From NCBI GenBank assembly GCA_046349515.1, contig JAXMCE010000001.1:19809-83808 (forward strand): DNA of 64,000 nt. Reading direction: 5' to 3'. Below are positions 8,423 to 22,450 of this stretch, in pieces; within the stretch, counting starts at the first letter, position 1, and each line of letters begins with the position of its first letter. Below the pieces are notes generated by a model, which was given only the letters and a program-made list of their open reading frames with translations, did not search any database and was not told the DNA's origin. This DNA comes from Alphaproteobacteria bacterium. Lineage in GTDB: Bacteria > Pseudomonadota > Alphaproteobacteria > CADEGL01. Position numbers and translations under genes: made by a program.

Positions 8423-10216
8423 ATGATGGATCAACCTGCGATGGGCGACGCACAACCTGATCCCGCAGATTTGGCCAAAATGATGGCGGCCATCGCCGAG
8501 CGCAGCCAACGGCTCGTCCGCGAGTTCTTGGCGCACCAGGCCGAGACCAACGGCAATGCCGATCCGCTCAACATCGGCGGCGCGTTCCTCGCGTTGACGG
8601 CCAAGCTGATGGCCGACCCCGCGCGCCTCGTCGAGGCGCAGGTGTCCCTGTGGCAGGACTACATGAGCCTGTGGCAAAGCGCCGCGCGCCGCATGATGGG
8701 CGAGACGAGCGAGCCCGTCATCGCGCCGCCCCACGGCGACCGGCGCTTCAAGGACAAGGAGTGGGAGGACAACCCGCTCTTCGACTACATCAAGCAGTCC
8801 TATCTCCTCACCTCGCGCTGGATGCTCGACACGGTGCGCAAGGTCGAGCATCTCGACGACAAGACGGCCAAGAAGATCGACTTCTATACGCGCCAGTTCG
8901 TGGACGCGATGGCGCCGTCGAACTTCGTGCTGACCAACCCCGAGGTCCTGCGCGCCACGATCGAGAGTCGCGGCGAGAACCTCGTCAAAGGGCTCGACAA
9001 CCTCTTGGGCGATCTCGAGCGCGGCAAGGGCCGCCTTCGGATCACCATGACCGACACGACGGCATTCGAGGTCGGCAAGAACATCGCGGTGACGCCGGGC
9101 AAGGTCGTGTTCCGCAACGACCTCATGGAGCTCATCCAATACGCGCCCGCGAGCGAGACGGTGTTTCGCCGCCCGCTTCTCGTCATCCCGCCCTGGATCA
9201 ACAAGTACTACATCCTCGATCTCCGGCCCGAGAACTCCTTCGCCAAGTGGCTGACCGAGCAGGGTCACACCGTCTTCATGGTGTCGTGGGTCAACCCTGA
9301 CACGGCGCTCGCCGGCAAGACCTTCGAGGATTACATGGTCGAGTGCCCGCTCGCGGCGCTCGACGCGATCGAGCAGGCGACGGGCGAGCGCGATGCCAAC
9401 GTCATCGGCTATTGCCTCGGGGGCACGCTCTTGGCCAGCACCCTCGCCTACATGGCCACGATGCGCGACGACCGGATCGCGAGCGCCACCTTCCTCACCG
9501 CCCTCGTCGACTTCAAGGAGCCCGGCGATCTCGGCGTCTTCATCGACGAAGAGCAGCTCGCGCAGCTCGAAGGCGAGATGAAGGAGAAGGGCTACCTCGA
9601 GGGCGCGCACATGGCGACGACCTTCAACATGCTGCGCGCCAACGACCTCATCTGGTCCTTCGTCATCAACAACTACCTGCTCGGCAAGGAGCCGTTCCCC
9701 TTCGACCTTCTCTATTGGAACGCGGATTCGACGCGCATGCCGGCGGCCATGCACAGCTTCTATCTGCGCAAGATGTACCAGGAGAATCGCCTGGTCGTGC
9801 CCGGCGGCATCCGCTTGAAGGGCGTGCCCATCGACGTGCGGACGGTCAAGACGCCGAGCTTCTTCCTCTCGACGCGCGAGGACCACATCGCGCCCTGGGA
9901 GACGACCTATACGACGACCCAGCTGTTCAGCGGGCCCGTGCGCTTCAACCTCGCGGCCTCGGGCCACATCGCGGGCGTGGTCAACCCGCCCGCGGGCGGG
10001 CGCTACAGCCATTGGACGAACGACTCCTGTCCGCCCGATCCAAAGGACTGGCTGGCCGGCGCCACCCAGCACAAGGGGTCATGGTGGCCGACCTGGCAGC
10101 GCTGGATCGAACCGTTCGGCGGCGAGCGCGTGCCCGCGCGCGTGCCCGGCAAAGGCAAGCTCAAGCCGCTCGCCGACGCGCCGGGCACCTACGTCCTCGT
10201 CAAGGCGCAGGACTAG
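8423..10216 (+). CDS. phaC: Class I poly(3-hydroxyalkanoate) synthase
   Basis: About 597 aa from the ATG at 8423. The exact start is uncertain (ATGs at 8405, 8423, 8426 and 8441). Conserved PhaC N-domain (DRRFKDKEWEDNPLFDYIKQSYLL, PPWINKYYILDL) and lipase box GYCLGG. The track ORF from 7826 is a shadow extension. Confidence 0.9.
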   Translation: MMDQPAMGDAQPDPADLAKMMAAIAERSQRLVREFLAHQAETNGNADPLNIGGAFLALTAKLMADPARLVEAQVSLWQDYMSLWQSAARRMMGETSEPVIAPPHGDRRFKDKEWEDNPLFDYIKQSYLLTSRWMLDTVRKVEHLDDKTAKKIDFYTRQFVDAMAPSNFVLTNPEVLRATIESRGENLVKGLDNLLGDLERGKGRLRITMTDTTAFEVGKNIAVTPGKVVFRNDLMELIQYAPASETVFRRPLLVIPPWINKYYILDLRPENSFAKWLTEQGHTVFMVSWVNPDTALAGKTFEDYMVECPLAALDAIEQATGERDANVIGYCLGGTLLASTLAYMATMRDDRIASATFLTALVDFKEPGDLGVFIDEEQLAQLEGEMKEKGYLEGAHMATTFNMLRANDLIWSFVINNYLLGKEPFPFDLLYWNADSTRMPAAMHSFYLRKMYQENRLVVPGGIRLKGVPIDVRTVKTPSFFLSTREDHIAPWETTYTTTQLFSGPVRFNLAASGHIAGVVNPPAGGRYSHWTNDSCPPDPKDWLAGATQHKGSWWPTWQRWIEPFGGERVPARVPGKGKLKPLADAPGTYVLVKAQD

Positions 10217-10223
10217 GGATTTC

Positions 10224-10718
10224 ATGGCGACGCGGCGGGCGAAGGCGCGCGGCATCACGCTCCGGCGCACGGTCAGCTGGAGCGAGTCGGATCCGGCCGG
10301 CATGATGAATTCGCCGCGCGCCTTCGACTACGCGATCGACGCGATCGAGCTCGTCTACCGGCAAGCGCTCGGCATTACCTTCCTCGGCCTCATCGAGCGC
10401 CACGCCTTGGGCGCGCCGCTCGTGCATTTGAGCTGCGACTACACGGCTCCGCTCGCCGAGGGCGACCGTCTCACGCTCACGGCCTGGATCGAACGTCTCG
10501 GCACGTCGTCCATCACCTGGCGGGTCGAGGCGCGGCGAAGCGATCGGAAGGTTGCGTTCACGGTGCGCCTCGTCTCGAGCTTCGTCCGCCGGCGCGACTT
10601 CAAGCCCGTGGCGATGCCGGCCCGGTTCCGCGCCCGGTTCGGGCGCTACCTCAGGGCGGACTCCGAGCGCACCCGTCCGGCCGCGCGCCGGACGCGGCGA
10701 GTCAAAACTCGAAAGTAA
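10224..10718 (+). CDS. Hotdog-fold acyl-CoA thioesterase (YbgC/4HBT-like)
   Basis: 164 aa. The N-terminal pattern V-W-x-x-D-x-x-G (VSWSESDPAGMM) is typical of 4HBT class II/YbgC proteins. The gene starts 7 nt after the phaC stop. Confidence 0.7.
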   Translation: MATRRAKARGITLRRTVSWSESDPAGMMNSPRAFDYAIDAIELVYRQALGITFLGLIERHALGAPLVHLSCDYTAPLAEGDRLTLTAWIERLGTSSITWRVEARRSDRKVAFTVRLVSSFVRRRDFKPVAMPARFRARFGRYLRADSERTRPAARRTRRVKTRK

Positions 10719-11607: not shown

Positions 11608-13191
11608 TTAATTCTCCGGGATCTCGTGGGAGGCAAGCTGGTCCTCGACGGAGAACAGCGGTGCCACGCCTTCATAATTGAGCGTCGTCATCATGCCCGC
11701 CAACAAATGGTAAAGGACGTGGCAATGAATCATCCAGATGCCGGGGTTGTCGGCATCGAACTGCACCTTGGCGGTCGAGCGCGAGAGCACGAGGACCGTG
11801 TCGCGCTTGGGGCCGGAGACGGGCGCCCCGCCGAGCTCCGTCACCTCGAAGACATGGCCGTGAAGATGCATGGGATGGGCCATGGCGGTCTTGTTGTCGA
11901 AGACGAGCTCGATCCGCTCGCCGTGCTTCACCCGGAGCGGCGTCACCCGCGGCCAGGTCTCGCCATTGATCGACCAGACATAGCGCATCATGTCGCCGTC
12001 GAGGCCGACCGTGATCGAACGGTCGACCGTTCGCCGAGCGAGCGGCGCCGAGGCTTTGAGGAGGCGTTCCTGGGCATAGTCGAGCGCCGGCGCGGGGGCG
12101 CCCGCGACCTCAGCGATCGGCGATGGCGAAGCCTTGGGTGTCGCGAGCACGAGGCCCGTCTGCTTCGTGGTCCCCTCGCCTTGCGCGAGAATCGGATAGA
12201 CGCCCTCACCGGGCGGGATCGTGAGGCGCAAATCGAGGCGCTGGGCGATGGCCATCTGGAACCGGTTGGCCTGCAAGGGGACGACAGGCTCGCCGTCCGT
12301 CGCGATCACTTCGGCCGCAACCGCCCCCGTCGAGACGATGAAGTTGCTCGCGGCGGCACCGTTGATGATGCGCAGGCGAAGGGTCGAGCCGGGCTCGACC
12401 CGTACCACCTCCGGATCGCTCAGCGTGCGCCAATTGGTGAGGTAGGCGTCGTAATCGACGTCGTTCAAGTCGACGCCGCCCGGCGCCATCGCGGGCATTC
12501 CCGGCATACCCGGCATTCCGCCCGTGCCATGGCCACCGTGCTGAGGCATGCCCGCCATGCCACCCATCGCCCCGTGGCCCGGCATCGCGCCGCCCATGCC
12601 ACTCATGCCGCCCATCCGTCCGCCCTTCTTCAGGCCGCGCCAGATGTCGAGCGGGCTCCTGTTCGACCAGTCGCTCAAGAACATCACGGCCTCGCGCATG
12701 CCCTGCTGCGCTTCGCGGGGGTCCGAGAGGATGAGCGGCGCCGCGAGAAGGCGTTGCTCCTGCAGGCCGTAATGCGAATGCATCCAATAGGTGCCTGCCT
12801 GGAGAATAGGGAAGCTGTAGCGATAGCGTCCGCCCGGCGGAATCGCGGGCTGCGTCACGTAAGCGACACCATCCTGGCGCCAGGGAAGGATGAGGCCGTG
12901 CCAATGGATGCTCGTCGGCTCGCTCGTCAGATTTTCGACGAGCACGTCGAAGCGCTTGCCCTTCTCGAGCGTGAGCCCCCAACTCCCGTCCGGCTGTTCG
13001 AGGCGGAGCACCTCGGCGCTCACCCCGTTGACGACGAGCGGCCGCTCGACGACGCGGAGCACTGTCGGGCGCTGGGACGGCTTGCCGCCGATGCCGGCCG
13101 AGACCGGACGCGGCCACAGGATGGGCGCGGCCGAGAGACCGCCCGACGCGGCAAGGCCTGAGAGGAACCGGCGACGGCGGAGACGGACCAT
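11608..13191 (-). CDS. copA: CopA/PcoA-type multicopper oxidase (Tat-exported)
   Basis: Start MVRLRRRRFLSGLAASGG is a twin-arginine signal. Copper-ligand motifs HWHG, HSH, HPMHLHGH and HCHVLYHLLAGMM are present, with a Met/Gly/His-rich insert (GGMSGMGGAMPGHGAMGGMAGMP...). The track ORF start at 13332 is judged an extension. Confidence 0.85.
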   Translation of the reverse strand: MVRLRRRRFLSGLAASGGLSAAPILWPRPVSAGIGGKPSQRPTVLRVVERPLVVNGVSAEVLRLEQPDGSWGLTLEKGKRFDVLVENLTSEPTSIHWHGLILPWRQDGVAYVTQPAIPPGGRYRYSFPILQAGTYWMHSHYGLQEQRLLAAPLILSDPREAQQGMREAVMFLSDWSNRSPLDIWRGLKKGGRMGGMSGMGGAMPGHGAMGGMAGMPQHGGHGTGGMPGMPGMPAMAPGGVDLNDVDYDAYLTNWRTLSDPEVVRVEPGSTLRLRIINGAAASNFIVSTGAVAAEVIATDGEPVVPLQANRFQMAIAQRLDLRLTIPPGEGVYPILAQGEGTTKQTGLVLATPKASPSPIAEVAGAPAPALDYAQERLLKASAPLARRTVDRSITVGLDGDMMRYVWSINGETWPRVTPLRVKHGERIELVFDNKTAMAHPMHLHGHVFEVTELGGAPVSGPKRDTVLVLSRSTAKVQFDADNPGIWMIHCHVLYHLLAGMMTTLNYEGVAPLFSVEDQLASHEIPEN

Positions 13192-13350
13192 GGGACCTCG
13201 CGGGCGGCGGTCAGGGCCCCCGTTCTGCCACCGGCCGCCGCCAGCGACAAGAAGGCCCCGGAGGACGGCCGGACCGGCGGCGGCTCGCCTTACCGATTTT
13301 CGCCCCCGCAGCGCACGAATTTTTTCCTCCATTGCTAATGAAAGAAAATC

Positions 13351-13389
13351 TGATACTTCTTTGATATATAGTAATAATCAGTTTTATCA
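13351..13389. promoter_or_regulatory. Nested dyad (candidate operator) in AT-rich divergent intergenic region
   Basis: TGATActtcttTGATAtatagtaaTAATCAgtttTATCA. The outer TGATA/TATCA and inner TGATA/TAATCA arms are symmetric about ~13370. It lies between copA (minus) and the hotdog-TetR gene (plus). Confidence 0.3.
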
Positions 13390-13455
13390 CCCACATGCCT
13401 TGACACCCGGCCGAGCGCGCGCGACAAGACCCGACCGACCGATCAGTCAGGACCC

Positions 13456-14517
13456 ATGGTGGACGAGGCCCTCTTCCTCAAAGAGCACGCGCAAGGCCTT
13501 GGCGCGCTCTTGGGAATCACCTTCACGACCGCGCGAAAGGACCTCGTCGTCGGAGAGATGACGCTGACGCCGCACCATCTTCACAGCGGCTCGGTCGTCC
13601 ATGGCGGCATCATCATGGCGCTGGCCGACGAGACGAACGCCTACGGCACCATCCTCAACCTGCCGCCGGGCCACAACACGGCGACGATCGAATCGAAGAC
13701 CAATTTCCTTCGCACGGGTTCGGGCCCGCGGCTCACGGCCGAGGCACGGCCGATTCGCATCGGTCGGCGCACCTCGGTCTGGCGCGCGACCATCTCGCGG
13801 GGCGCGGGCGGCCCCATCGCCGAGGTCACCCAGACCCAGATGGTGTTGGAGGACGAGACCCGCGAGGCCGAGGCGCCGCCGCCCGCGGCCGCCGCGACGA
13901 ATGGCGGCGCCGAGCGCGCGGGCGATACCGCCGCCGAGCGCCGGCGCCAAATCTTCGAGGGTGCCTGCGCGGTCATCACGCGCAAGGGCTTCGACAACGC
14001 CACCATCCGCGAGATCGCCGCGGCCGCCGGCATGCCCGTGCCGACCATGTATCAATACATCAAGCGCAAGGAAGACCTCCTTTCCCTCATCTACGAATAC
14101 TTCATGGAGGACTACATCGGCGCGCTCACGGCGACGGCGAGCGGGCAGCAATCCCCCGAGGCGCGCCTGGCCCACGCCGTGAGGGAGACGATCGAGAACT
14201 TCGATCGCAACCACCGGTTCATCAAGCTCATGTTCCAGGAGACTCGCGCGCTCGATGCCAACTCCCGCGCGCGCGTCTACGACCTCGACGCGCGCTACAT
14301 CGAGGTCTGGAAGACGCTGCTCGCCGAACGCACCGGGACCGAGCCGATCGACGCCGAGCTTGCCGCCAATTTCATCTATTTCCTCTGCACGATCTGGCCG
14401 CTCAGGCACTGGACGATCGGCAAGTACGGCCGCGAGCGCGTGACGGAGGCCATCAGCGCCTTCGTACTCGACGGCCTCGGCCAGCACGCCGCCCCTTCAG
14501 CCAAGGAGAAGCGATGA
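13456..14517 (+). CDS. Fusion protein: PaaI-type hotdog thioesterase domain + TetR-family transcriptional regulator
   Basis: 353 aa. Residues ~1-135 carry a PaaI/4HBT signature (HSGSVVHGGIIMALADETNAYG, ESKTNFLR, IGRRTSVWRATI). An Ala/Pro linker follows. The TetR helix-turn-helix (GFDNATIREIAAAAGMPVPTMYQYIKRKEDLL) and a helical C-domain complete the protein. Confidence 0.8.
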   Translation: MVDEALFLKEHAQGLGALLGITFTTARKDLVVGEMTLTPHHLHSGSVVHGGIIMALADETNAYGTILNLPPGHNTATIESKTNFLRTGSGPRLTAEARPIRIGRRTSVWRATISRGAGGPIAEVTQTQMVLEDETREAEAPPPAAAATNGGAERAGDTAAERRRQIFEGACAVITRKGFDNATIREIAAAAGMPVPTMYQYIKRKEDLLSLIYEYFMEDYIGALTATASGQQSPEARLAHAVRETIENFDRNHRFIKLMFQETRALDANSRARVYDLDARYIEVWKTLLAERTGTEPIDAELAANFIYFLCTIWPLRHWTIGKYGRERVTEAISAFVLDGLGQHAAPSAKEKR

Positions 14518-15710
14518 TGAAGTTCATGTTTTTCTCGGAGGCCGAGACCGCCCCCGGCGCCTCCTACCAGACACGCTACTGGGAGCTCGTCGAGCAGGTC
14601 ATCCACGCCGAGAAGTGGGGCTTCGATTCCTTCGGCGTCTCCGAGCAGCAATACGCGATCGGCGGCATCTCGACCTCCTGCCCCGAAGTGCTCTACGCCT
14701 ATCTCTTCCCCCTCACGAAGACGCTCCGCTTCGCCCACGCGATCACCCTGCTGCCGAAGAACATCAACCACGCGCTCCGGGTCGCCTCGCGCACGGCCGT
14801 CCAGGACGTCCTGTCCAATGGCCGGATCGAGTTGGGCGTCGGGCGCGGCAATACGACCTTGGCGCTCCGCGCCTTCGAGGTCGACCTCGAGCGCAACCGC
14901 GACGAAGTGAACGAGGGGATCCAGGTGCTGAAGAAGGCCTTCACCGAGGATCCGTTCATGTTCTACGGCGAGCACTACAAGATTCCGCCGCGCTCGCTCG
15001 TGCCGAAGCCGCTGCAGACCCCTCACCCGCCGCTCTACGTCGCCGCGACGAGCCCCGAGTCGCACAAGATGGCGGGCGATCTCGGCGTCGGCGTTTACAG
15101 CTGGTCGAATTTCATGGGCTATGACGCGCTCGCCGAATCGGTTTCCGCGTTCAGGAAAGCGGCCGCCGCGACCAAGGCCAAGGGCGAGCATGTGAACGAG
15201 AGCGCGGGCGCCCTCGTCCAATGCTACTGCGCCGAGACCGACGCGATCGCCGAGGCGGAAGCCGGCGAAGGCAACCTCAAGTGGCTGAGGATCGCCCTCG
15301 ACGGCTATCCGCGGCTCGCCAAGATGGCGCAGAGCTACGCCTACATGGCCAAGATCGACGAGGTGTCGCGCAAGACCAGCGACTTCCGCTATTTCACCGA
15401 CGCTTCGGGCGCCGCGATCTTCGGCTCGCCCGAAAGCTGCATCCGCTCGATCGAGCGCCTGGCCGCCTGCGGGATCGATCAGTGCGTCATGCGCATCGAC
15501 AGCACCTCGCACGCGAACATCATGAAGTCGATCGAGATGTTCGGCCGGCACGTCATCCCGCACTTCAAGAACCGGCAGAACTTCATGCGCCCGGCCGAGG
15601 ACGTGATGGCGGACATCCGCGCCATGCGCGAGAAGGCGCGCGCCATGGGCATCTATGTCGAGGGCGGCGAGGAGAAGAAGAAGCCCGTGAAGCCGACGGC
15701 GGCGGAGTAG
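14514..15710 (+). CDS. Luciferase-like (LLM class) flavin-dependent monooxygenase
   Basis: 398 aa with LLM features: WGFDSFGVSEQ, RIELGVGRG and PKPLQTPHPPLYVAA. The ATG overlaps the upstream stop (ATGA), which suggests translational coupling. Confidence 0.85.
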   Translation: MMKFMFFSEAETAPGASYQTRYWELVEQVIHAEKWGFDSFGVSEQQYAIGGISTSCPEVLYAYLFPLTKTLRFAHAITLLPKNINHALRVASRTAVQDVLSNGRIELGVGRGNTTLALRAFEVDLERNRDEVNEGIQVLKKAFTEDPFMFYGEHYKIPPRSLVPKPLQTPHPPLYVAATSPESHKMAGDLGVGVYSWSNFMGYDALAESVSAFRKAAAATKAKGEHVNESAGALVQCYCAETDAIAEAEAGEGNLKWLRIALDGYPRLAKMAQSYAYMAKIDEVSRKTSDFRYFTDASGAAIFGSPESCIRSIERLAACGIDQCVMRIDSTSHANIMKSIEMFGRHVIPHFKNRQNFMRPAEDVMADIRAMREKARAMGIYVEGGEEKKKPVKPTAAE

Positions 15711-15713
15711 CCG

Positions 15714-16178
15714 ATGGCCAAGATCCTCGAGCTCCTGACCGTCAACGTCGCGGTCAAGGATCTGGACGCGGGCCTCGCCAAGTACCGGGCCTTGGGCCTC
15801 GAATCGATCCGCCCCATGGTGATGCCGGAGCTGCCGGCGGCGATCACCGACGTCACCTTCCCCATCGGGGCCGAAGGCTCGATCTCCGTCATCGCGGCGA
15901 TCGGTGAGAAGTCGCCCGTCAAACGCTTCATCGACAAGCGCGGCGAGGGCGTCTACTCGATCGCCGTGCGCGTCGACAGCCTCAAGGACGCGATGGCCGA
16001 GTGGAAGGGGTTCGACTGGGTGCTGCCGGAGCCCTACGAGTTCCCGACACCCAACCAGGCCGCGCGGCATCTACCGGAGAAGCTCCGCGTCAACTGGATC
16101 AAGCCCTCCTCCCTCGCGGGCGTCATGCTCGAAGTGTTCGAGTTCGTGGGCGAGGTCCGCCCCACGCCCAAGGCATGA
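15714..16178 (+). CDS. VOC/glyoxalase-fold protein (methylmalonyl-CoA-epimerase-like)
   Basis: 154 aa. The N-terminal beta-alpha-beta pattern (LTVNVAVKDLDAGLAKYRALGLE) and the motif GEGVYSIAVRVDSL fit the fold. It starts 3 nt after the LLM stop. Confidence 0.6.
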   Translation: MAKILELLTVNVAVKDLDAGLAKYRALGLESIRPMVMPELPAAITDVTFPIGAEGSISVIAAIGEKSPVKRFIDKRGEGVYSIAVRVDSLKDAMAEWKGFDWVLPEPYEFPTPNQAARHLPEKLRVNWIKPSSLAGVMLEVFEFVGEVRPTPKA

Positions 16179-16267: not shown

Positions 16268-17800
<1,533 letters not shown>

Positions 17801-18018: not shown

Positions 18019-18810
18019 ATGGACCGCTACGCGAGCTACAAGGAACTGAAGATCGAGGCCCAGGGGAACGGCGTTCTCCTCGTGACGCTCAACCGGCCGC
18101 AAGTGCTGAACGCCATGACCTACAGCATGCACGGCGAGCTCGCGCGCCTGTGGCACGACATCGACCACGACCCCGACTGCCGCGTCGCCGTCGTCACGGG
18201 CGCGGGCCGCGCCTTCTGTTCGGGCAACGACTTGAAGAACCCCGATCCCGATTTCGACGGCGTGCGCGAGATCATGCAGGACGCGGTGCGCATCGTGCGC
18301 GGCATGGTCGAGTGCGACAAGCCGATCATCTCGGCGATTAACGGCGTCGCGGTGGGGGCCGGGCTCGCGGTCGCGCTCATGGCCGATCTCGCGATCGCGG
18401 CCGAGGATGCGAAGCTCATCGACGGGCACACCGGCGTCGGCGTCGCGGCGGGCGACCACTCGGCGCTCGTCTGGCCGCTTCTCTGCGGCATCGGGCGCGC
18501 GAAGTTCTATCTCTGGAACCTGGCGCCGCTCACGGGGCGCGAGGCCGAGCGCATCGGCCTCGTGACCAAGGCCGTGCCCCAGGACCAGGTGCTGCCGGAG
18601 GCCATGCGCCTTGCGAACCAGTTGGCCCAAGGCCCGCAATACGCGATCCGCGGGACGAAGCGCGCGATCAACGGCTGGCTGCGCCAGGCCATGCCGATCT
18701 TCGAACACTCGGCGGCGCTCGAGATGGTCGACTTCTTCGGCCCGGACGTCGATGCCGCGCGCAAGGCCTTCCGCGCGAAGCAGCCGGTCAAGTTCCCTTC
18801 GGCGCGCTAG
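18019..18810 (+). CDS. Enoyl-CoA hydratase/isomerase (crotonase family)
   Basis: 263 aa with crotonase motifs: VVTGAGRAFCSGNDL and AINGVAVGAGLAVALMADL. An AAGGGAG Shine-Dalgarno precedes the start. Confidence 0.9.
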   Translation: MDRYASYKELKIEAQGNGVLLVTLNRPQVLNAMTYSMHGELARLWHDIDHDPDCRVAVVTGAGRAFCSGNDLKNPDPDFDGVREIMQDAVRIVRGMVECDKPIISAINGVAVGAGLAVALMADLAIAAEDAKLIDGHTGVGVAAGDHSALVWPLLCGIGRAKFYLWNLAPLTGREAERIGLVTKAVPQDQVLPEAMRLANQLAQGPQYAIRGTKRAINGWLRQAMPIFEHSAALEMVDFFGPDVDAARKAFRAKQPVKFPSAR

Positions 18811-18830: not shown

Positions 18831-19229
18831 GTGAAGCCCGTGGCTGTCGGCACCGCGCACACGCGCAGCTTCGCGACCGTGCCCGAGCAATCGGCCGCGG
18901 CGACCGGCAACACCGGCATCGACGTCGTCTCCTCGGTCACGCTCATCGGCTTCATCGAGTACGCGTGTTACGAGATCATCGCGCCCTCGTTCGAGGCGGG
19001 CGAGGCGTCTGTCGGCGTCGGGTTCAACCTGACGCATGTGGCCCCGGCGCCGATCGGCGCCCCCATCACCGTGACGGCGCGCCTCATCCGCATCGAGGGA
19101 CGCAAATACGATTTCGAGACCGAGGCGCGCGCGGGCGAGCGCCTCCTCATGACCGGGACCCACCAGCGCGCGATCGTCGACCTCGCGCGGTTCGGTCCGG
19201 AGGAGCGCGCGCGCAAGAGCGCGCGCTGA
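18831..19229 (+). CDS. Hotdog-fold thioesterase (FlK-like family)
   Basis: 132 aa with a GTG start. The pattern VLSTP.LI..E..C is approximated by VVSSVTLIGFIEYACYE. The family assignment is from memory and is moderate. Confidence 0.6.
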   Translation: MKPVAVGTAHTRSFATVPEQSAAATGNTGIDVVSSVTLIGFIEYACYEIIAPSFEAGEASVGVGFNLTHVAPAPIGAPITVTARLIRIEGRKYDFETEARAGERLLMTGTHQRAIVDLARFGPEERARKSAR

Positions 19230-19251: not shown

Positions 19252-21678
19252 TCAGGCGCGAAGCCTCGCATTCGCCGGATCGTAGACCGGCTCGGCCAGC
19301 ACGTGGGCCGCCCGCCTCTCTCCCAGAAGTTCGATCGAGAGACGCGTTCCCGGCACCGCCGCGTCCGGACGCACATAGGCAAAGGCCAGCGACCGGCCCG
19401 TTCGGTGCCCGAAGGCGCCCGAGGAGGTGAGGCCCACCACCTGGCCGTTGGAGAACACAGCCTCGCCGCCGCGCGCGTCGGACTTGGCGTCTTCGATCGA
19501 GAGATAGGCAAGCCGGTAGGCAAGGGTCCCGGTCTTACGCGCGAGCGTGGCGGCACGGCCACGGAACTCGCCTTTCCCCGCGGCGAAGAAGCGCTCCATG
19601 TCGGCCTCAACCAGCGTGATCTCGTTGGTGAGCTCGCTGCCCCAGCCGCGATAGGCCTTCTCCATGCGGAGGCTGTTGAGCGCATAGAGGCCGAAATCGG
19701 CGATGCCGAGCGGCTCGCCCGCGCGCCAGACGAGGTCGTAGAGGCGCTTCATGTCGCCCGTCGGGACATGGAGCTCCCAGCCGAGCTCGCCCACATAGTT
19801 GACGCGGAGCGCCCGCAAGCCGACGCCGCCAAGCTTGAGCTCGCGCGCCGTGAGCCAGGGGAAGGCCGCGTTGCCGAGGTCTTCGTTGGTCAAGCCGGTC
19901 AGGAGATCGCGCGAGCGCGGCCCCGCGACCACGAGGACGCCGTGGCGATCAGTCACGTTGTCGACGCGAACGTCTTCGCCGGGCCGGCGCAACTGGGTCA
20001 AGAAATCGAGGTCGCGCCGCTCGGCCGCGATCGAGGAGAGAAGATAGAAGCGATCGTCCGCGAGGCGCGTGACGGTGAACTCCGTCTCGATCCGTCCGCT
20101 CTCAGTCAAGAGATGGCTCAAGACGATGCCGCCCGTCTTCCTCGGCAGGCGGTTCGAGAGAATGCGGTCGAGGAAGGACGCGGCACCGCGCCCCGACACT
20201 TCGAACTTGGCGAAGCTCGTGAGATCGGCGATGCCGACCCGCTCGGCGACCGCCCGGCACTCCTCGCCCACGGGCTCGAACACGTTGGTGCGCCCGAAGC
20301 CGGGCTCTTCGACCCGGCCGTCGCGCGAGAACCATTTGGGCCGCTCGTAGCCGCCGCCCTCGGTGAAGACGCAGCCCTTGGCGGCCAGGGTCTCGTGGAG
20401 CGGCGATGTGCGCGTCGGGCGTCCGGCCGGCCGCTCCTCGCCGGGCACGTGCGTCACGAACATGTGGTGATAGTCGTCGAAGGACTTGGCTCGCACGTAA
20501 TCCTTGTCGGCGTAAGGGCCGAAGCGGCGCGAATCGAAATCCTTCATGTTGATCTCGGCCGCGCCCTCGACCATCCACTGCGCCAAGTACTTGCCGCAGC
20601 CGGCGCCTTGCGCGATGCCGACCGAGCAGCCGCAGCACAGCCAGAAGTTGCGCAGGCCCGCGGCCGGGCCGAGCAAGGGATTGCCGTCCGGCGAGTGCGG
20701 AATGGCGCCGTTCACGATGCGCTTGATGCCAACCGTGGCGAAGATCGGCATGCGCTCCATCACGCGCCCGAGCCAGACGTCGATCCGGTCGAGATCGCCC
20801 GCGAAGAGCTCGTTGCTCGACGGCCAGTCGGGCGAACCGCCGCGGGCGCTCCACGCCTCCTCAGCGCCCTGGTGCTCGTAGATGCCGATCAACCCCGCCT
20901 TTTGCTCCTGCCGGTAGTAGCCGGCCGTGTAGGGATCGCGCATGACCGGGATCTCCTCCCGGCGCTCCTGGAACTCCTTGATCGTCTCGGTCACGAGGTA
21001 CTGGTGTTCCATGTTGGTGATGGGAACGTCGATGCCGACCATCTGGCCGATCTCGCGAGCATTGCAGCCGGCGGCGTTCACCACGTGCTCGGCCAGGAAA
21101 TCGCCCTTCTCGCTCTCGACGAGCCAGGCGCCATCGCGCTGCCGGGTGATGGCCGTCACCCGGCAGCGGCGCAGGATCTCGGCGCCGAGATTACGCGCCG
21201 CGATCGCGAGCGCGTTGCAGCAGCCGGCGGGATCGACATGGCCGTCATCGAGGGTCCAGGCGCCGGCGACGACGCCGTCGACCGTGAGGAAGGGATTGAT
21301 CTTCCGAATCTCGTCCGGCCCGACGATCTCCATGCGGAAGCCGATCTCGTGGGCGGAGCTCTGCACATACTTGAACCAGTCGAGCTCGTCGCGGTTGGTC
21401 GCGATGCGAATGCCGCCGCAGCCGTGCCAGCCCGTGTATTGACCGGTCATGGCCTCGAGCTTCGGGTAGAGCGTGTTCGCGTAGTGGTGGATCTTGCCGA
21501 TGGCGTAGTTGCCGAGGACGCTCGCGACCTGCCCCGCGGCGTGCCAGGTCGAGCCCGAGGTGAGCTCGCCCTTCTCGATCAAGAGCACATCCTTCCAGCC
21601 GAGCTCCGCCAAGTGATAGAGGAGGCCCACCCCCATCATGCCACCGCCGATGATGACCACGCGCTTCGTTTGAGGCAT
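19252..21678 (-). CDS. Dimethylglycine/sarcosine dehydrogenase family protein (FAD oxidoreductase fused to GcvT-like folate domain)
   Basis: 808 aa. N-terminal FAD motif VVIIGGGMMGVGLLYHLA and the covalent-flavin region SGSTWHAAGQ are present, followed by a C-terminal aminomethyltransferase-like domain. Confidence 0.9.
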   Translation of the reverse strand: MPQTKRVVIIGGGMMGVGLLYHLAELGWKDVLLIEKGELTSGSTWHAAGQVASVLGNYAIGKIHHYANTLYPKLEAMTGQYTGWHGCGGIRIATNRDELDWFKYVQSSAHEIGFRMEIVGPDEIRKINPFLTVDGVVAGAWTLDDGHVDPAGCCNALAIAARNLGAEILRRCRVTAITRQRDGAWLVESEKGDFLAEHVVNAAGCNAREIGQMVGIDVPITNMEHQYLVTETIKEFQERREEIPVMRDPYTAGYYRQEQKAGLIGIYEHQGAEEAWSARGGSPDWPSSNELFAGDLDRIDVWLGRVMERMPIFATVGIKRIVNGAIPHSPDGNPLLGPAAGLRNFWLCCGCSVGIAQGAGCGKYLAQWMVEGAAEINMKDFDSRRFGPYADKDYVRAKSFDDYHHMFVTHVPGEERPAGRPTRTSPLHETLAAKGCVFTEGGGYERPKWFSRDGRVEEPGFGRTNVFEPVGEECRAVAERVGIADLTSFAKFEVSGRGAASFLDRILSNRLPRKTGGIVLSHLLTESGRIETEFTVTRLADDRFYLLSSIAAERRDLDFLTQLRRPGEDVRVDNVTDRHGVLVVAGPRSRDLLTGLTNEDLGNAAFPWLTARELKLGGVGLRALRVNYVGELGWELHVPTGDMKRLYDLVWRAGEPLGIADFGLYALNSLRMEKAYRGWGSELTNEITLVEADMERFFAAGKGEFRGRAATLARKTGTLAYRLAYLSIEDAKSDARGGEAVFSNGQVVGLTSSGAFGHRTGRSLAFAYVRPDAAVPGTRLSIELLGERRAAHVLAEPVYDPANARLRA

Positions 21679-21816: not shown

Positions 21817-22368
21817 TTAGCCCGCCACGCTCTTTTTGTGGATCTGCGCGTAGTGCATGTAGCGCTTGGGCGCGTCCTCGAGCTCGAAGGCTTCCTCGGG
21901 CTTCAGGTCCCGGAAGTACTTCGCGGGCACGCCGGCCCAGAGCTGGCCCTTCTGCACCCGCCGGCCCGGGGGCACGAGCGCGCCCGCCGCCACCATCGAG
22001 CCCGATTCCAGGACGCAGCCATCCATCACGCAGGCCTTCATGCCGACGAAGGAATTGTCGCCCATGGTGCAGCCATGGACGATGGCGATATGGCCGATGA
22101 GGCAGTGCTTGCCGATGATGGTCGGGAACTCGCGGTCGACATGGACGATCGTGCCGTCCTGGATGTTCGAGCCCTCGCCCACGCGGATGTGGTTCACGTC
22201 GCCTCGGAGCACGCAGTTGTACCAGATGCTGGCGCCCGGCCCGACCTCGACGTCGCCGATGAGGATGGCGCCGGGAGCGATGAAGGCGTCGGGTGCCACC
22301 TTGGGCCGCTTGTCCTGGTAGGGAAGAAGGAGGCCGCTCAACCCAGGCCTGCCGCCATCCGCGTTCAT
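21817..22368 (-). CDS. Gamma-carbonic-anhydrase-like / hexapeptide-repeat protein
   Basis: Left-handed beta-helix repeats (IGDVEVGPGASIWYNCVLRGDVNHIRVGEGSNIQDGTIVH). The ATG at 22368 has a GGGGAGA Shine-Dalgarno. Confidence 0.85.
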   Translation of the reverse strand: MNADGGRPGLSGLLLPYQDKRPKVAPDAFIAPGAILIGDVEVGPGASIWYNCVLRGDVNHIRVGEGSNIQDGTIVHVDREFPTIIGKHCLIGHIAIVHGCTMGDNSFVGMKACVMDGCVLESGSMVAAGALVPPGRRVQKGQLWAGVPAKYFRDLKPEEAFELEDAPKRYMHYAQIHKKSVAG

Positions 22369-22450
22369 GCTTGTCTCCCCTTCTTCCTGCACTTCAACGA
22401 TGGGCACATCACGATTCGTGCTTCATAACGCGCGCTTCACGACCGGCGTG

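What the first reader, a model, noticed from the sequence alone, without database searches (positions are those of the whole stretch)
13456..14517. PaaI-type hotdog thioesterase domain covalently fused to a TetR regulator
One uninterrupted 353-codon ORF encodes three parts. Residues ~1-135 form a complete PaaI/4HBT-like hotdog domain (SGSVVHGGIIMALADETNAYG, ESKTNFLR, IGRRTSVWRATI). An Ala/Pro-rich linker follows (EAEAPPPAAAATNGG). Then comes a canonical TetR helix-turn-helix (FDNATIREIAAAAGMPVPTMYQYIKRKEDLL) with its helical effector domain. TetR proteins normally consist only of the HTH plus a C-terminal ligand domain. An added acyl-CoA-binding or hydrolysing module suggests that the regulator captures, or destroys, its own acyl-CoA effector. 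The stop overlaps the start of the next gene (ATGA), and the downstream operon is CoA-centred. I know of no characterised example of this architecture.
Basis: partly seen in the sequence, partly recalled or inferred. Interest (0 to 1): 0.7.

Follow-up and report, generated by a model that had tools for sequence, protein, structure and literature searches.

The report
Thioesterase domain fused to TetR repressor
This is a real, conserved but unstudied bacterial gene in which an acyl-CoA-cleaving enzyme domain is tethered to a FadR-like TetR repressor that probably controls its own CoA-dependent breakdown operon, so the repressor may destroy the kind of molecule that switches it off.

Summary
ORF 13456-14517 (353 aa) has a PaaI/YbdB-clade hotdog domain (res 1-132), a disordered Ala/Pro-rich linker (137-156) and a complete TetR regulator (157-342). 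The fusion is a conserved family, not an artefact: at least 210 clusters at 90% identity, 205 strong representatives among 1.84 billion proteins, but only 29 of 185,579 GTDB species, all uncultured MAGs, mostly Alphaproteobacteria. I found no paper on it.

New here:
- In about 27 of 30 loci it heads the same operon: luciferase-like monooxygenase, VOC/epimerase-like protein, then acyl-CoA ligase and/or enoyl-CoA hydratase plus FlK-like thioesterase.
- A 16-bp palindrome (GAnTGAnCGnTCAnTC) lies near the gene start in all 28 loci scanned.
- The commonest form shares its half-sites with the Bacillus FadR operator.
- The catalytic Asp is acidic in 98% of members, and the window protein has the full HGG...D motif.

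Best reading: an acyl-CoA-released autorepressor carrying a tethered, probably active thioesterase that acts on the same acyl-CoA pool. This joins the PaaR and PaaI logic in one chain. FapR-like sensing is less likely. It is a new variant of known kinds, of moderate interest.

The parts
13350..13378 (+). Sigma-70-like promoter match CTGATA-17-AATAAT inside an AT-rich island (13320-13409, 25-37% GC). It is a candidate distal promoter.
   Evidence: Consensus scan, 1 found against 0.0 expected; composition profile. There is no conserved counterpart in the other loci.
13400..13428 (+). Candidate proximal promoter TTGACA (13400-13405), 17 nt spacer, GACAAG (13423-13428). It would place the transcription start inside the operator.
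   Evidence: Read from the sequence. The same TTGACA-17-GACAAG arrangement, with a different spacer sequence, is in the closest relative L086. In other loci TTGAC(A/C/T) lies 16-19 nt before the operator. This is inference and is not mapped.
13433..13448 (.). Predicted operator GACCGACCGATCAGTC, the window's copy of the family palindrome GA[ACG]TGA[TG]CG[AC]TCA[N]TC, 23 nt before the start codon.
   Evidence: A PWM built from 20 other loci (window excluded) scores it 17.6 bits. It is the only hit above 9 bits in 64 kb. About 1e-4 such hits are expected by chance in 100 nt. All 28 loci have a site (26 of them between -58 and +2), including 5 loci not used for training at 25-25.7 bits.
13456..13851 (+). 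Hotdog (PaaI/YbdB/4HBT-II clade) thioesterase domain, res 1-132. Helix N-cap is His49-Gly50-Gly51. The predicted catalytic Asp58 codon is at 13627-13629.
   Evidence: Pfam 4HBT and TIGR00369 above cut-off. AF2 pLDDT is above 90. Foldseek top 50 are all thioesterases of this clade, target TM 0.70-0.89. Asp58 aligns with the catalytic Glu64 of PA1618. The position is acidic in 118 of 120 family members.
13852..13923 (+). Flexible Ala/Pro/Gly-rich linker, res 133-156.
   Evidence: pLDDT is below 50 for res 137-156. Across the family the linker is hypervariable, 22-51 aa, rich in A/G/P/S/R/E, with many indels.
13924..14088 (+). TetR DNA-binding domain (helices α1-α3 and the start of α4), res 157-211. 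The helix-turn-helix is almost invariant in the family.
   Evidence: Pfam TetR_N 166-209. Mean pairwise identity for res 160-211 is 75%, against 56% for the other parts. R162, I166, A170, G178, R185, T197, M198, Y199, Y201, K205 and L209 are invariant.
14089..14481 (+). TetR_C_24 ligand-binding and dimerisation domain, res 212-342. Predicted acyl-CoA site.
   Evidence: Pfam TetR_C_24. The nearest solved relatives by sequence include Bacillus FadR (3whb, 5gp9, 1vi0) and KstR2 (4w1u). The best NCBIfam regulator hits are Bacillus FadR and FasR, below cut-off.
14514..15710 (+). Luciferase-like monooxygenase (LLM), 398 aa, start overlapping the fusion's stop (ATGA). It is the signature enzyme of the operon.
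   Evidence: Pfam Bac_luciferase E 3e-44. It lies directly downstream of the fusion in about 27 of 30 loci and is 80-94% identical in most GTDB loci (57-94% overall).
15714..16178 (+). VOC/Glyoxalase_4 protein, 154 aa, with weak similarity to methylmalonyl-CoA epimerase.
   Evidence: Pfam Glyoxalase_4. TIGR03081 scores 47.6 bits, below its cut-off of 115. Synteny is conserved.
16268..17800 (+). AMP-forming acyl-CoA ligase, 510 aa.
   Evidence: Pfam AMP-binding and AMP-binding_C. Conserved in the operon, either downstream of VOC or upstream of the fusion gene.
18019..18810 (+). Enoyl-CoA hydratase/isomerase family protein, 263 aa.
   Evidence: Pfam ECH_1. NCBIfam PRK07327 scores 329 bits against a cut-off of 292. 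Present in a subset of operons.
18831..19229 (+). FlK-like hotdog thioesterase, 132 aa, a second and separate thioesterase that ends the operon.
   Evidence: Pfam FlK E 3.6e-25. PDB FlK 3kuv E 7e-18. It follows ECH in L082, L086, L088, L089, L091, L093 and L104.

Best explanation
The gene encodes a bifunctional enzyme-regulator that heads and autoregulates a CoA-dependent catabolic operon (LLM, VOC, acyl-CoA ligase, enoyl-CoA hydratase, FlK-like thioesterase).

The C-terminal two-thirds is a Bacillus-FadR-like TetR repressor. As a dimer it binds the 16-bp palindrome at 13433-13448, which overlaps or lies just downstream of its own promoter. It is released when an acyl-CoA made by the operon's ligase occupies its TetR_C_24 pocket.

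The N-terminal third is a PaaI/YbdB-clade hotdog thioesterase. It hangs on a 22-51-residue disordered tether and most likely pairs with the hotdog domain of the partner chain. In the window protein it is probably catalytically active. It would hydrolyse the same pool of acyl-CoA (the inducer or a stalled intermediate), as PaaI does for phenylacetyl-CoA. That would free CoA, raise the threshold for induction and speed re-repression once the substrate is gone.

Shown here: the architecture, the family, the synteny, the conserved operator, and conservation of the catalytic residues.

Inferred: repression, acyl-CoA as the effector, thioesterase activity, and identity of the enzyme's substrate with the inducer.
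For: Regulator half:
- TetR_N and TetR_C_24 score above Pfam cut-offs.
- The nearest solved relatives by sequence include Bacillus FadR and KstR2. The best NCBIfam regulator hit is Bacillus-type FadR.
- A conserved palindrome lies near the fusion gene's start in 28 of 28 loci, including 5 held-out loci and the held-out window site (17.6 bits, about 1e-4 expected by chance).
- In many loci the palindrome sits 16-19 nt after a TTGAC(A/C/T) hexamer, where a -10 box would be.
- Its commonest form, GAATGA-N4-TCATTC, has the same outer half-sites as the crystallised B. halodurans FadR operator, and that FadR is released by fatty acyl-CoA (PMC5397183).
- The fusion gene is first in the operon and translationally coupled to the LLM gene (ATGA). 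Synteny holds in about 27 of 30 loci.

Enzyme half:
- TIGR00369 scores above its cut-off.
- The Foldseek top 50 hits are thioesterases of the PaaI/YbdB/YdiI/4HBT-II clade, many of them characterised enzymes; FapR is absent.
- Asp58 aligns with the catalytic Glu64 of PA1618 and is D/E in 118 of 120 members despite about 55% mean identity.
- The window protein has the full H49-G50-G51...D58 motif, which is 96-100% conserved in 80 stand-alone relatives.

Tether rather than allosteric coupling:
- The linker has pLDDT below 50 and pTM is 0.58.
- Linker length and sequence are hypervariable.

Accessory to regulation rather than a core pathway step:
- The LLM-VOC-ligase core exists without any fusion, hotdog or TetR gene in 5 loci.

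Precedent for the logic in trans:
- PaaI hydrolyses phenylacetyl-CoA, the inducer of the TetR repressor PaaR (PMC9493321).
Against: - No activity, DNA binding or ligand binding was measured. The operon's substrate is unknown and no literature covers it.
- The helix N-cap HGG is only 56% His and 74% second Gly in the fusion family, against 96-100% in stand-alone relatives. It is replaced by Ser-rich motifs in the fusion-LLM-VOC-ligase clade. Two GTDB members have Asn or Ala at position 58. Parts of the family may therefore have reduced or lost catalysis.
- The window protein departs from the family consensus at two conserved sites: Glu59 in place of Cys, and Arg101 in place of His.
- A second thioesterase (FlK-like) in the same operon could make the fused one redundant as an enzyme.
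- The NCBIfam FadR and PaaI equivalog models are far below their cut-offs, so effector and substrate cannot be transferred by homology.
- The window's operator copy is the weakest in its clade (17.6 bits) and no second site is present.
Confidence: 0.5

Rival explanations
1. FapR-like sensor. The hotdog domain no longer hydrolyses. It binds an acyl-CoA (a second effector, or the only one), and that binding changes how the hotdog dimer sits against the TetR DNA-binding domains, so it controls operator binding.
For: FapR shows that a hotdog fold can serve as a non-catalytic acyl-CoA sensor in a repressor (PMC516016, PMC5052256). The HGG cap is relaxed in the fusion family compared with stand-alone relatives. 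New residues are fixed only in the fusions (Cys59, Tyr63, Arg110, Arg115, Gly88), which could form a new binding or docking surface. The domain is attached directly N-terminal to the helix-turn-helix.
Against: The catalytic carboxylate is kept in 98% of members, and the window protein has the complete motif. There is no sequence similarity to FapR even at E <= 10, and FapR is not among the top 50 fold hits. FapR relies on a structured amphipathic linker helix, whereas this linker is disordered and varies from 22 to 51 aa. AF2 gives no confident inter-domain arrangement (pTM 0.58). The TetR half keeps a conserved ligand domain of its own.
Confidence: 0.17
2. Oligomerisation scaffold. The hotdog domains, which form dimers and back-to-back tetramers in PaaI-type enzymes, link two TetR dimers. 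The protein then binds two operators cooperatively or loops DNA, and any catalysis is secondary.
For: PaaI-clade enzymes are tetramers made of two dimers (PMC2698920, PMC9493321). In 9 of 28 loci there is a second operator copy 53-55 bp or 78-98 bp upstream of the main one. Bacillus FadR itself binds as a dimer of dimers.
Against: The window and its closest relative L086 have a single site. In the one locus checked for this (L085), the second site lies next to the start of a divergent gene and may simply control that gene. A pure scaffold role does not explain conservation of the active-site Asp and of CoA-pocket-type residues.
Confidence: 0.1
3. Neutral gene fusion. Two adjacent genes (a pathway thioesterase and the pathway's TetR repressor) were joined by loss of a stop codon. 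Each half does its own job and fusion adds no regulatory property.
For: Hotdog proteins are often fused to neighbouring genes (PMC516016). One locus (L002) has TGA followed at once by GTG exactly at the domain boundary, so the halves can be read as separate genes. The linker is an unstructured spacer.
Against: The fusion has been maintained across lineages that have diverged to 32-50% identity and in different operon variants. The only 'split' cases are a contig with 5x coverage and a frameshifted assembly. Fusion-specific residues have become fixed in the hotdog half. Even as a separate enzyme, a thioesterase acting on the pathway's acyl-CoA would lower inducer levels, so this rival differs from the best explanation mainly in degree.
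Confidence: 0.15
4. Artefact. A sequencing or assembly error merged two genes in this window.
For: None specific. High-GC DNA produces many long spurious ORFs.
Against: The same full-length architecture occurs in at least 119 other database proteins and in 29 GTDB loci from independent assemblies.
Confidence: 0.01

Closest known systems
FapR (Bacillus / Staphylococcus malonyl-CoA-responsive repressor)
   Same: One polypeptide combines a helix-turn-helix DNA-binding domain with a dimeric hotdog-fold acyl-CoA-binding domain, and it represses lipid/CoA-related genes (PMC516016, PMC5052256, PMC3536700).
   Different: In FapR the order is DNA-binding domain, then a structured linker helix, then the hotdog domain. 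Its DNA-binding domain is DeoR-like, the hotdog is its only effector domain, and that domain is non-catalytic. Here the hotdog is N-terminal, belongs to the active PaaI/YbdB clade and keeps the catalytic Asp. The linker is disordered, and a complete TetR ligand domain is present as well. There is no detectable sequence similarity to FapR.
PaaR + PaaI of the phenylacetate pathway (Thermus, Corynebacterium, Burkholderia)
   Same: A TetR repressor is released by an acyl-CoA (phenylacetyl-CoA). A PaaI-type hotdog thioesterase hydrolyses that same acyl-CoA as a safety valve. Both belong to a CoA-ligase-initiated oxygenase pathway (PMC9493321).
   Different: These are two separate proteins there and one chain here. 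The oxygenase is a di-iron PaaABCDE complex there and a luciferase-like flavin monooxygenase here. The PaaI equivalog model is not met (44 bits against a cut-off of 118.9).
Bacillus-type FadR (YsiA), TetR-family fatty-acyl-CoA repressor
   Same: It is the best NCBIfam regulator hit and is among the PDB sequence hits. The operator half-sites GAATGA/TCATTC are identical to the commonest form of this family's palindrome. FadR is released by acyl-CoA and autoregulates (PMC5397183).
   Different: FadR has about 190 aa and no enzyme domain. The equivalog cut-off is not met (55 bits against 200). The central 4 bp of the operator differ (ATAC against TCGA). The regulon is classical beta-oxidation, not an LLM operon.
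Trigger enzymes / enzyme-repressor fusions (PutA, BirA, NadR, RbkR)
   Same: An enzyme domain acting on a pathway metabolite and a DNA-binding domain controlling that pathway are in one polypeptide (PMC5397151 and the papers listed).
   Different: In those proteins the enzyme's catalytic state is itself the signal. Here a separate, conventional ligand-binding domain is also present, so the enzyme would adjust the signal and not act as the sensor.

Membership tests
TetR family of regulators | N-terminal three-helix HTH DNA-binding domain (PF00440) | tested here: met
   TetR_N at res 166-209, 40.7 bits against a cut-off of 24. AF2 helices at 157-177, 184-190 and 195-199.
TetR family of regulators | All-helical C-terminal ligand-binding and dimerisation domain | tested here: met
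   TetR_C_24 at res 232-341, 35.3 bits against a cut-off of 26.4. AF2 shows helices only from 205 to 340.
TetR family of regulators | Palindromic operator near its own or an adjacent gene | tested here: met
   A 16-bp palindrome is conserved in 28 of 28 loci. The window site is 13433-13448. This is comparative prediction; binding was not measured.
TetR family of regulators | About 200 aa, two-domain protein without further domains | tested here: not met
   The protein has 353 aa, with an extra 132-aa hotdog domain and a linker. This is what makes it a variant.
TetR family of regulators | Ligand-induced release from DNA | not testable with these tools
   Needs EMSA or a reporter assay.
Bacillus-type FadR (NF053878 equivalog) | Score above the curated equivalog cut-off | tested here: not met
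   55 bits against a cut-off of 200. It is FadR-like, not FadR.
Bacillus-type FadR (NF053878 equivalog) | FadR-box operator (GAATGA ... TCATTC half-sites) | tested here: met
   The commonest form of the family palindrome, GAATGAtCGaTCATTC, matches the B. halodurans core GAATGAATACTCATTC in its outer half-sites. The window's own copy is a diverged variant, GACCGACCGATCAGTC.
Bacillus-type FadR (NF053878 equivalog) | Binds long-chain acyl-CoA as effector | not testable with these tools
   Inferred only from family resemblance.
PaaI / YbdB / 4HBT-II hotdog thioesterases (TIGR00369) | Domain model above its cut-off | tested here: met
   68.8 bits against a cut-off of 36.6, res 17-128.
PaaI / YbdB / 4HBT-II hotdog thioesterases (TIGR00369) | Hotdog fold (long central helix wrapped by an antiparallel sheet) | tested here: met
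   AF2 gives helix 50-67 and strands 21-36, 73-84, 92-102, 106-115 and 120-132, with pLDDT above 90. Foldseek target TM is 0.70-0.89 across the top 50, and 0.8-0.87 to PA1618, HI1161, YdiI and YbdB.
PaaI / YbdB / 4HBT-II hotdog thioesterases (TIGR00369) | Catalytic Asp/Glu on the central helix, nine residues after the His-Gly helix N-cap | tested here: met
   The window has H49-G50-G51 and D58. D58 aligns with PA1618 Glu64. Family-wide the acid is 98% conserved, His 56% and the second Gly 74%.
PaaI / YbdB / 4HBT-II hotdog thioesterases (TIGR00369) | Acyl-CoA hydrolase activity; dimer or tetramer with active sites at subunit interfaces | not testable with these tools
   Needs an enzyme assay and SEC-MALS.
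PaaI proper (TIGR02286 equivalog) | Score above the equivalog cut-off; located in a paa cluster | tested here: not met
   44 bits against a cut-off of 118.9. There are no paaABCDE genes nearby.
FapR family | N-terminal DeoR-like HTH, structured linker helix, C-terminal non-catalytic hotdog; malonyl-CoA effector | tested here: not met
   The domain order is reversed and the HTH is TetR-type. The linker is disordered. The catalytic Asp is present. FapR is not found by sequence at E <= 10 or in the top 50 fold hits.

The most novel reading that the evidence does not exclude
The protein is a self-resetting switch: a repressor that enzymatically destroys its own inducer. The tethered thioesterase would hydrolyse the acyl-CoA that releases the TetR half from DNA. 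Induction would then require acyl-CoA production to outrun hydrolysis, giving a built-in threshold and noise filter. Repression would return quickly once the substrate is gone. It would be the first catalytically active hotdog domain found working inside a transcription factor, and the first TetR regulator known to turn over its own ligand. A more speculative extension concerns the Asp-Cys pair fixed in 88% of the family (though not in the window protein): it might let the regulator become S-acylated and so record acyl-CoA exposure covalently.
Probability: 0.3. Interest if true: 0.72.

Novelty: new variant of a known kind. Interest (0 to 1): 0.52.

Why it matters
TetR regulators are the largest family of one-component repressors and are widely used as biosensor parts. 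Almost all are plain two-domain proteins that only bind their ligand. A conserved family in which the repressor carries an enzyme for the same class of ligand suggests a way to build thresholds and fast shut-off into a metabolic switch. It would also offer a ready-made design for acyl-CoA biosensors that reset themselves.

The family also marks an uncharacterised catabolic operon whose luciferase-like monooxygenase is unusually conserved (80-94% identity in most loci, across families of Alphaproteobacteria). It occurs in uncultured soil, peat, lake and marine Alphaproteobacteria and its substrate is unknown.

This work supplies concrete test material: the operator sequence, the catalytic residue to mutate, and the domain boundaries for truncations.

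Tried and rejected
The repeat finder reports no such dyad. By eye its arms are only 5 nt (TGATA/TATCA). It lies in an AT-rich island with a promoter-like match and has no conserved counterpart elsewhere. Rejected in favour of 13433-13448.
- **Literature.** Four full-text searches for a hotdog/thioesterase-TetR fusion or for the LLM operon found nothing relevant. Most 'tetr' hits were the word 'tetramer'. The main TetR-family review is not held.
- **Single-protein GTDB scan.** It mostly returned stand-alone hotdog genes. These were useful as a control set, but their neighbourhoods are heterogeneous and say nothing about substrate.
- **Unfused versions of the regulator.** P0196 and P0197 turned out to be the split (L002) and frameshifted (L105) copies. 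P0202 is not on record. P0218 is a true stand-alone TetR, but beside a CoA-transferase and not this operon.
- **Second operator or wider regulon in the window.** No other site reaches 9 bits in 64 kb.
- **Operon substrate.** PDB and NCBIfam give only generic LLM, VOC and ECH assignments.
- **Other hotdog/TetR arrangements among the distant hits.** P0239 is a double hotdog, P0181 a double TetR, and P0158 a TetR-LLM read-through call. No reversed-order fusion was seen.
- **Inter-domain contacts.** Only a monomer model without PAE or coordinates was available. pTM of 0.58 is uninformative beyond 'no fixed arrangement'.
Full report
**1.

The window has one uninterrupted ORF at 13456-14517 on the + strand, 353 codons with an ATG start. 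Its TGA overlaps the ATG of the next gene as ATGA. Pfam finds 4HBT (res 46-119, E 3.3e-12), TetR_N (166-209, E 2e-10) and TetR_C_24 (232-341, E 1.5e-8), all above the curated cut-offs. NCBIfam's hotdog thioesterase domain model TIGR00369 covers res 17-128 at 68.8 bits against a cut-off of 36.6.

An AlphaFold2 model built with a 93-sequence family alignment has mean pLDDT 87.7. It shows a hotdog fold (helix 50-67 wrapped by strands up to residue 132) and an all-helical TetR body (157-340). The segment between them (137-156) has pLDDT below 50. The pTM of 0.58 fits two confident modules with no fixed mutual orientation.

**2. It is a conserved family, not an accident**

A search of 5.8 billion clustered proteins returned 210 hits with E <= 1e-5. 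The 119 best besides the window's own protein are 309-394 aa, cover both halves at 46-82% identity, and nearly all carry the same three Pfam domains. Sources name them only 'hotdog fold thioesterase' or 'uncharacterized protein (TIGR00369 family)'.

An exhaustive profile search of 1.84 billion 50%-identity representatives gave 205 proteins with E <= 1e-30. About 100 of the best 150 are 300-420 aa and span both halves.

In one genome for each of 185,579 GTDB species, an alignment-based scan found only 29 loci. All are MAGs. Most are Alphaproteobacteria (Stellaceae, Acetobacteraceae, Aestuariivirgaceae, Rhodospirillales), with distant outliers at 32-39% identity in Casimicrobiaceae, Hyphomicrobiales, Thermoanaerobaculia and a 'Bordetella' MAG. 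So the family has many sequences but a narrow taxonomic range, and it is absent from cultured isolates in that collection. That fits the lack of any paper on it. No solved structure covers both halves.

**3. Gene neighbourhood**

In about 27 of 30 loci the fusion gene is followed directly by a luciferase-like monooxygenase (LLM) and a small VOC/Glyoxalase_4 protein. After those comes one of two arrangements. Either an AMP-forming acyl-CoA ligase follows, or an enoyl-CoA hydratase with or without an FlK-like thioesterase follows and the ligase sits just upstream of the fusion gene. The window and its closest relative L086 have all of these genes in one row. One clade adds an OB_ChsH2_C protein and an SCP-x-type thiolase.

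The LLM is 80-94% identical in most loci, including those where the regulator is only 50-60% identical. The LLM-VOC-ligase core also occurs with no fusion, hotdog or TetR gene within 5 kb in five loci. The fused hotdog is therefore not an obligatory pathway step; it travels with the regulator. The operon's substrate is unknown. PDB and NCBIfam give only generic family assignments, and no paper matches.

**4. The operator**

Translating the DNA just upstream of the start codons gave recurring peptide strings, which exposed a conserved DNA element. It is a 16-bp palindrome, GA[ACG]TGA[TG]CG[AC]TCA[N]TC.

I built a PWM from 20 loci, excluding the window. It finds a site in all 28 loci scanned. 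Most score above 20 bits, and the two most distant loci score 14.9 and 18.7. In 26 loci the site lies between -58 and +2 of the fusion gene's start. Five loci that were not in the training set each have a site of 25-25.7 bits.

In the window the only hit above 9 bits in 64 kb is GACCGACCGATCAGTC at 13433-13448, 23 nt before the ATG, at 17.6 bits. Markov shuffles of the window give 0.067 such hits per 64 kb, or about 1e-4 per 100 nt.

In many loci the palindrome begins 16-19 nt after a TTGAC(A/C/T) hexamer, where a -10 box would be. In the window and L086, a TTGACA-17-GACAAG arrangement would put the transcription start inside the operator. This is the usual layout of an autorepressed TetR promoter.

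That island contains a sigma-70-like match, CTGATA-17-AATAAT, and has no conserved counterpart in the other loci.

Nine of 28 loci have a second, weaker copy 53-55 or 78-98 bp upstream. In L085 it lies next to the start of a divergent gene of about 300 aa that has no Pfam family. The window has none.

**5. What kind of TetR**

The TetR half's best NCBIfam hits are Bacillus-type FadR, SACE_7040 and FasR, all below their equivalog cut-offs. Its PDB sequence hits include Bacillus FadR (3whb, 5gp9, 1vi0) and KstR2 (4w1u). From my own knowledge, not checked here, KstR2, AibR (5k7f) and FasR (6o6n) are also acyl-CoA-responsive.

The crystallised B. halodurans FadR operator is GATGAATGAAT*ACTCATTCAT, and that FadR is released by fatty acyl-CoA (PMC5397183). 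Its 16-bp core, GAATGA-ATAC-TCATTC, shares both outer half-sites with the commonest form of this family's palindrome, GAATGA-TCGA-TCATTC. So the regulator half is FadR-like in sequence, in Pfam ligand-domain family and in operator. It is not an equivalog of FadR.

The helix-turn-helix is the best conserved part of the protein (75% mean pairwise identity). The ligand domain (56%) is as conserved as the hotdog domain (56%). That argues that the TetR half keeps a working pocket of its own.

**6. Is the hotdog half an enzyme or a sensor?**

The 50 best fold matches in the PDB are all hotdog thioesterases of the PaaI/YbdB/YdiI/4HBT-II clade, including PA1618, HI1161, YdiI, YbdB, Arthrobacter 4-hydroxybenzoyl-CoA thioesterase and E. 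coli PaaI. Target TM-scores range from 0.70 to 0.89. FapR, the known non-catalytic hotdog sensor, is not among them. It is also not found by sequence at E <= 10.

Asp58 aligns with the catalytic Glu64 of PA1618. His49-Gly50 correspond to the helix N-cap that polarises the thioester in this clade (PMC516016).

Among 120 fusion proteins, position 58 is Asp in 113 and Glu in 5. Eighty stand-alone relatives, 45-50% identical to the hotdog half and ending right after it, have His 96%, Gly-Gly 100% and Asp 100%. In the fusion family His falls to 56% and the second Gly to 74%.

This change is lineage-specific and not random. Operons with the hydratase (with or without FlK) carry HGG or YGG. The fusion-LLM-VOC-ligase operons mostly carry Ser-rich caps (SGS, SSG, SSS, TSS, NGS) and still keep Asp-Cys. 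Two GTDB members have Asn or Ala at position 58.

The fusions have also fixed residues that the stand-alone relatives lack: Cys59 (88% against 12%), Tyr63, Arg110 (99%, against Gln in 91%), Arg115 and Gly88.

The window protein has the complete canonical H-G-G...D motif. It is unusual in having Glu59 and Arg101, where the family has Cys and His.

**7. Mechanism**

I consider the following the most likely account. The protein is a FadR-like, acyl-CoA-released autorepressor of its operon. It carries a probably active PaaI-type thioesterase on a flexible tether. That enzyme works on the same acyl-CoA pool, so it frees CoA, raises the induction threshold and speeds re-repression.

The separate-protein version of this logic is documented. 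PaaI hydrolyses phenylacetyl-CoA, which is also the inducer of the TetR repressor PaaR (PMC9493321).

Four points argue against a FapR-like allosteric sensor. FapR depends on a structured amphipathic linker helix (PMC5052256), whereas this linker is disordered and varies from 22 to 51 residues. The catalytic acid is retained. The TetR half has its own ligand domain. AF2 predicts no fixed domain arrangement. The relaxed HGG cap and the fusion-specific residues keep that rival alive, especially for the Ser-cap clade.

A scaffold role, with a hotdog tetramer bridging two operators, is suggested by the second sites. It does not apply to the window and does not explain active-site conservation.

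A neutral fusion is possible. L002 has TGA followed by GTG exactly at the domain boundary, but on a contig with 5x coverage. L105 is frameshifted in the linker. That rival fits poorly with retention of the fusion across deep divergence and with the fusion-specific substitutions.

None of the biochemical steps has been tested.

**8. Comparison and novelty**

The protein meets the defining features of the TetR family except the plain two-domain build. It meets the TIGR00369 hotdog thioesterase features that can be tested in silico. It fails the equivalog tests for FadR and PaaI, and it is not a FapR.

I classify it as a new variant of known kinds: an acyl-CoA-type TetR repressor with a covalently attached thioesterase. 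It is conceptually related to trigger enzymes such as PutA, BirA and RbkR, to FapR, and to the PaaR/PaaI pair.

Interest is moderate. The architecture is real, conserved and unstudied, and it gives a clear, testable idea: a repressor that degrades its own inducer. However, each component is familiar, and the databases already hold the architecture under a generic name.

Noticed in passing
window 14514-15710 (LLM); loci L086, L117-L143: The luciferase-like monooxygenase is 80-94% identical in most loci (57-94% overall), across alphaproteobacterial families in which the adjacent regulator is only 50-60% identical. It defines an uncharacterised LLM-VOC-acyl-CoA ligase core with no literature. That core also exists without the fusion regulator: L125 and L132 (after ABC-transporter genes), L135 and L136 (after PhaR-like, hydrolase and MBL-fold genes), and L142.
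   Followed up: partly
window 13320-13409: An AT-rich island (25-37% GC) lies within DNA of 70-80% GC, between the divergent multicopper oxidase gene and the fusion gene. It contains a sigma-70-like promoter match, CTGATA-17-AATAAT, at 13350-13378.
   Followed up: partly
L083 7938-8867(-), L084 1340-2269(-), L085 7945-8859(-), L116 4869-5816(-): A divergently transcribed gene of about 304-315 aa with no Pfam family (only faint 4HBT similarity, E 0.06-0.18) lies directly upstream of the fusion gene in several loci. In L085 and L105/L116 a second operator copy lies upstream of the fusion gene; in L085 it is next to this gene's start. The gene may belong to the regulon.
   Followed up: partly
L002 3423-4535 (same contig as L113); L105 7992-9063 (same contig as L116): In L002 an in-frame TGA falls exactly at the end of the hotdog domain and is followed at once by GTG, so the two halves are called as separate genes. 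The contig has only 5x coverage. L105 has a frameshift in the linker. These could be natural splits or assembly errors.
   Followed up: partly
family alignment, residues 58-59 and 101 (window 13627-13632, 13756-13758): Cys next to the catalytic Asp is fixed in 88% of fusion proteins, against 12% of stand-alone relatives. It is Glu in the window protein and its two closest relatives. The window protein alone has Arg101, where 116 of 120 members have His.
   Followed up: no
L088 9109-9537 and 9540-10664; the same arrangement in L089: An OB_ChsH2_C (DUF35-like zinc-ribbon/OB-fold) protein and an SCP-x-type thiolase are inserted between the fusion gene and the LLM gene in one clade. This adds a retro-aldol or thiolytic step to the operon.
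   Followed up: partly
window ~8501-10216 (+) and 10224-10718 (+): A PhaC polyhydroxyalkanoate synthase is followed immediately by a YbgC-like 4HBT_2 thioesterase. PhaC lies upstream of the fusion operon in L082, L091, L095 and L096, and downstream of it in L100.
   Followed up: no
window 11608-13332 (-): A multicopper oxidase has a long Met/Gly/His-rich insert (MGGMSGMGGAMPGHGAMGGMAGMPQHGGHGTGGMPGMPGMPAM). Its annotated start is probably too far upstream, because a twin-arginine-like RRRRFLSG motif lies about 50 residues in.
   Followed up: no
window 19252-21678 (-) and 21817-22407 (-): A DAO plus GCV_T fusion (dimethylglycine/sarcosine-dehydrogenase type) and a hexapeptide-repeat (LbH) protein lie just downstream. 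A hexapeptide gene also follows the operon in L082. Creatinase-like, Rieske and Oxidored_FMN genes occur nearby in L081 and L082. This may hint at osmolyte or amine-acid catabolism.
   Followed up: no
P0158 (518 aa): One database protein joins the TetR half directly to the LLM in a single call. This is probably read-through or a gene-calling artefact at the overlapping stop/start junction.
   Followed up: no
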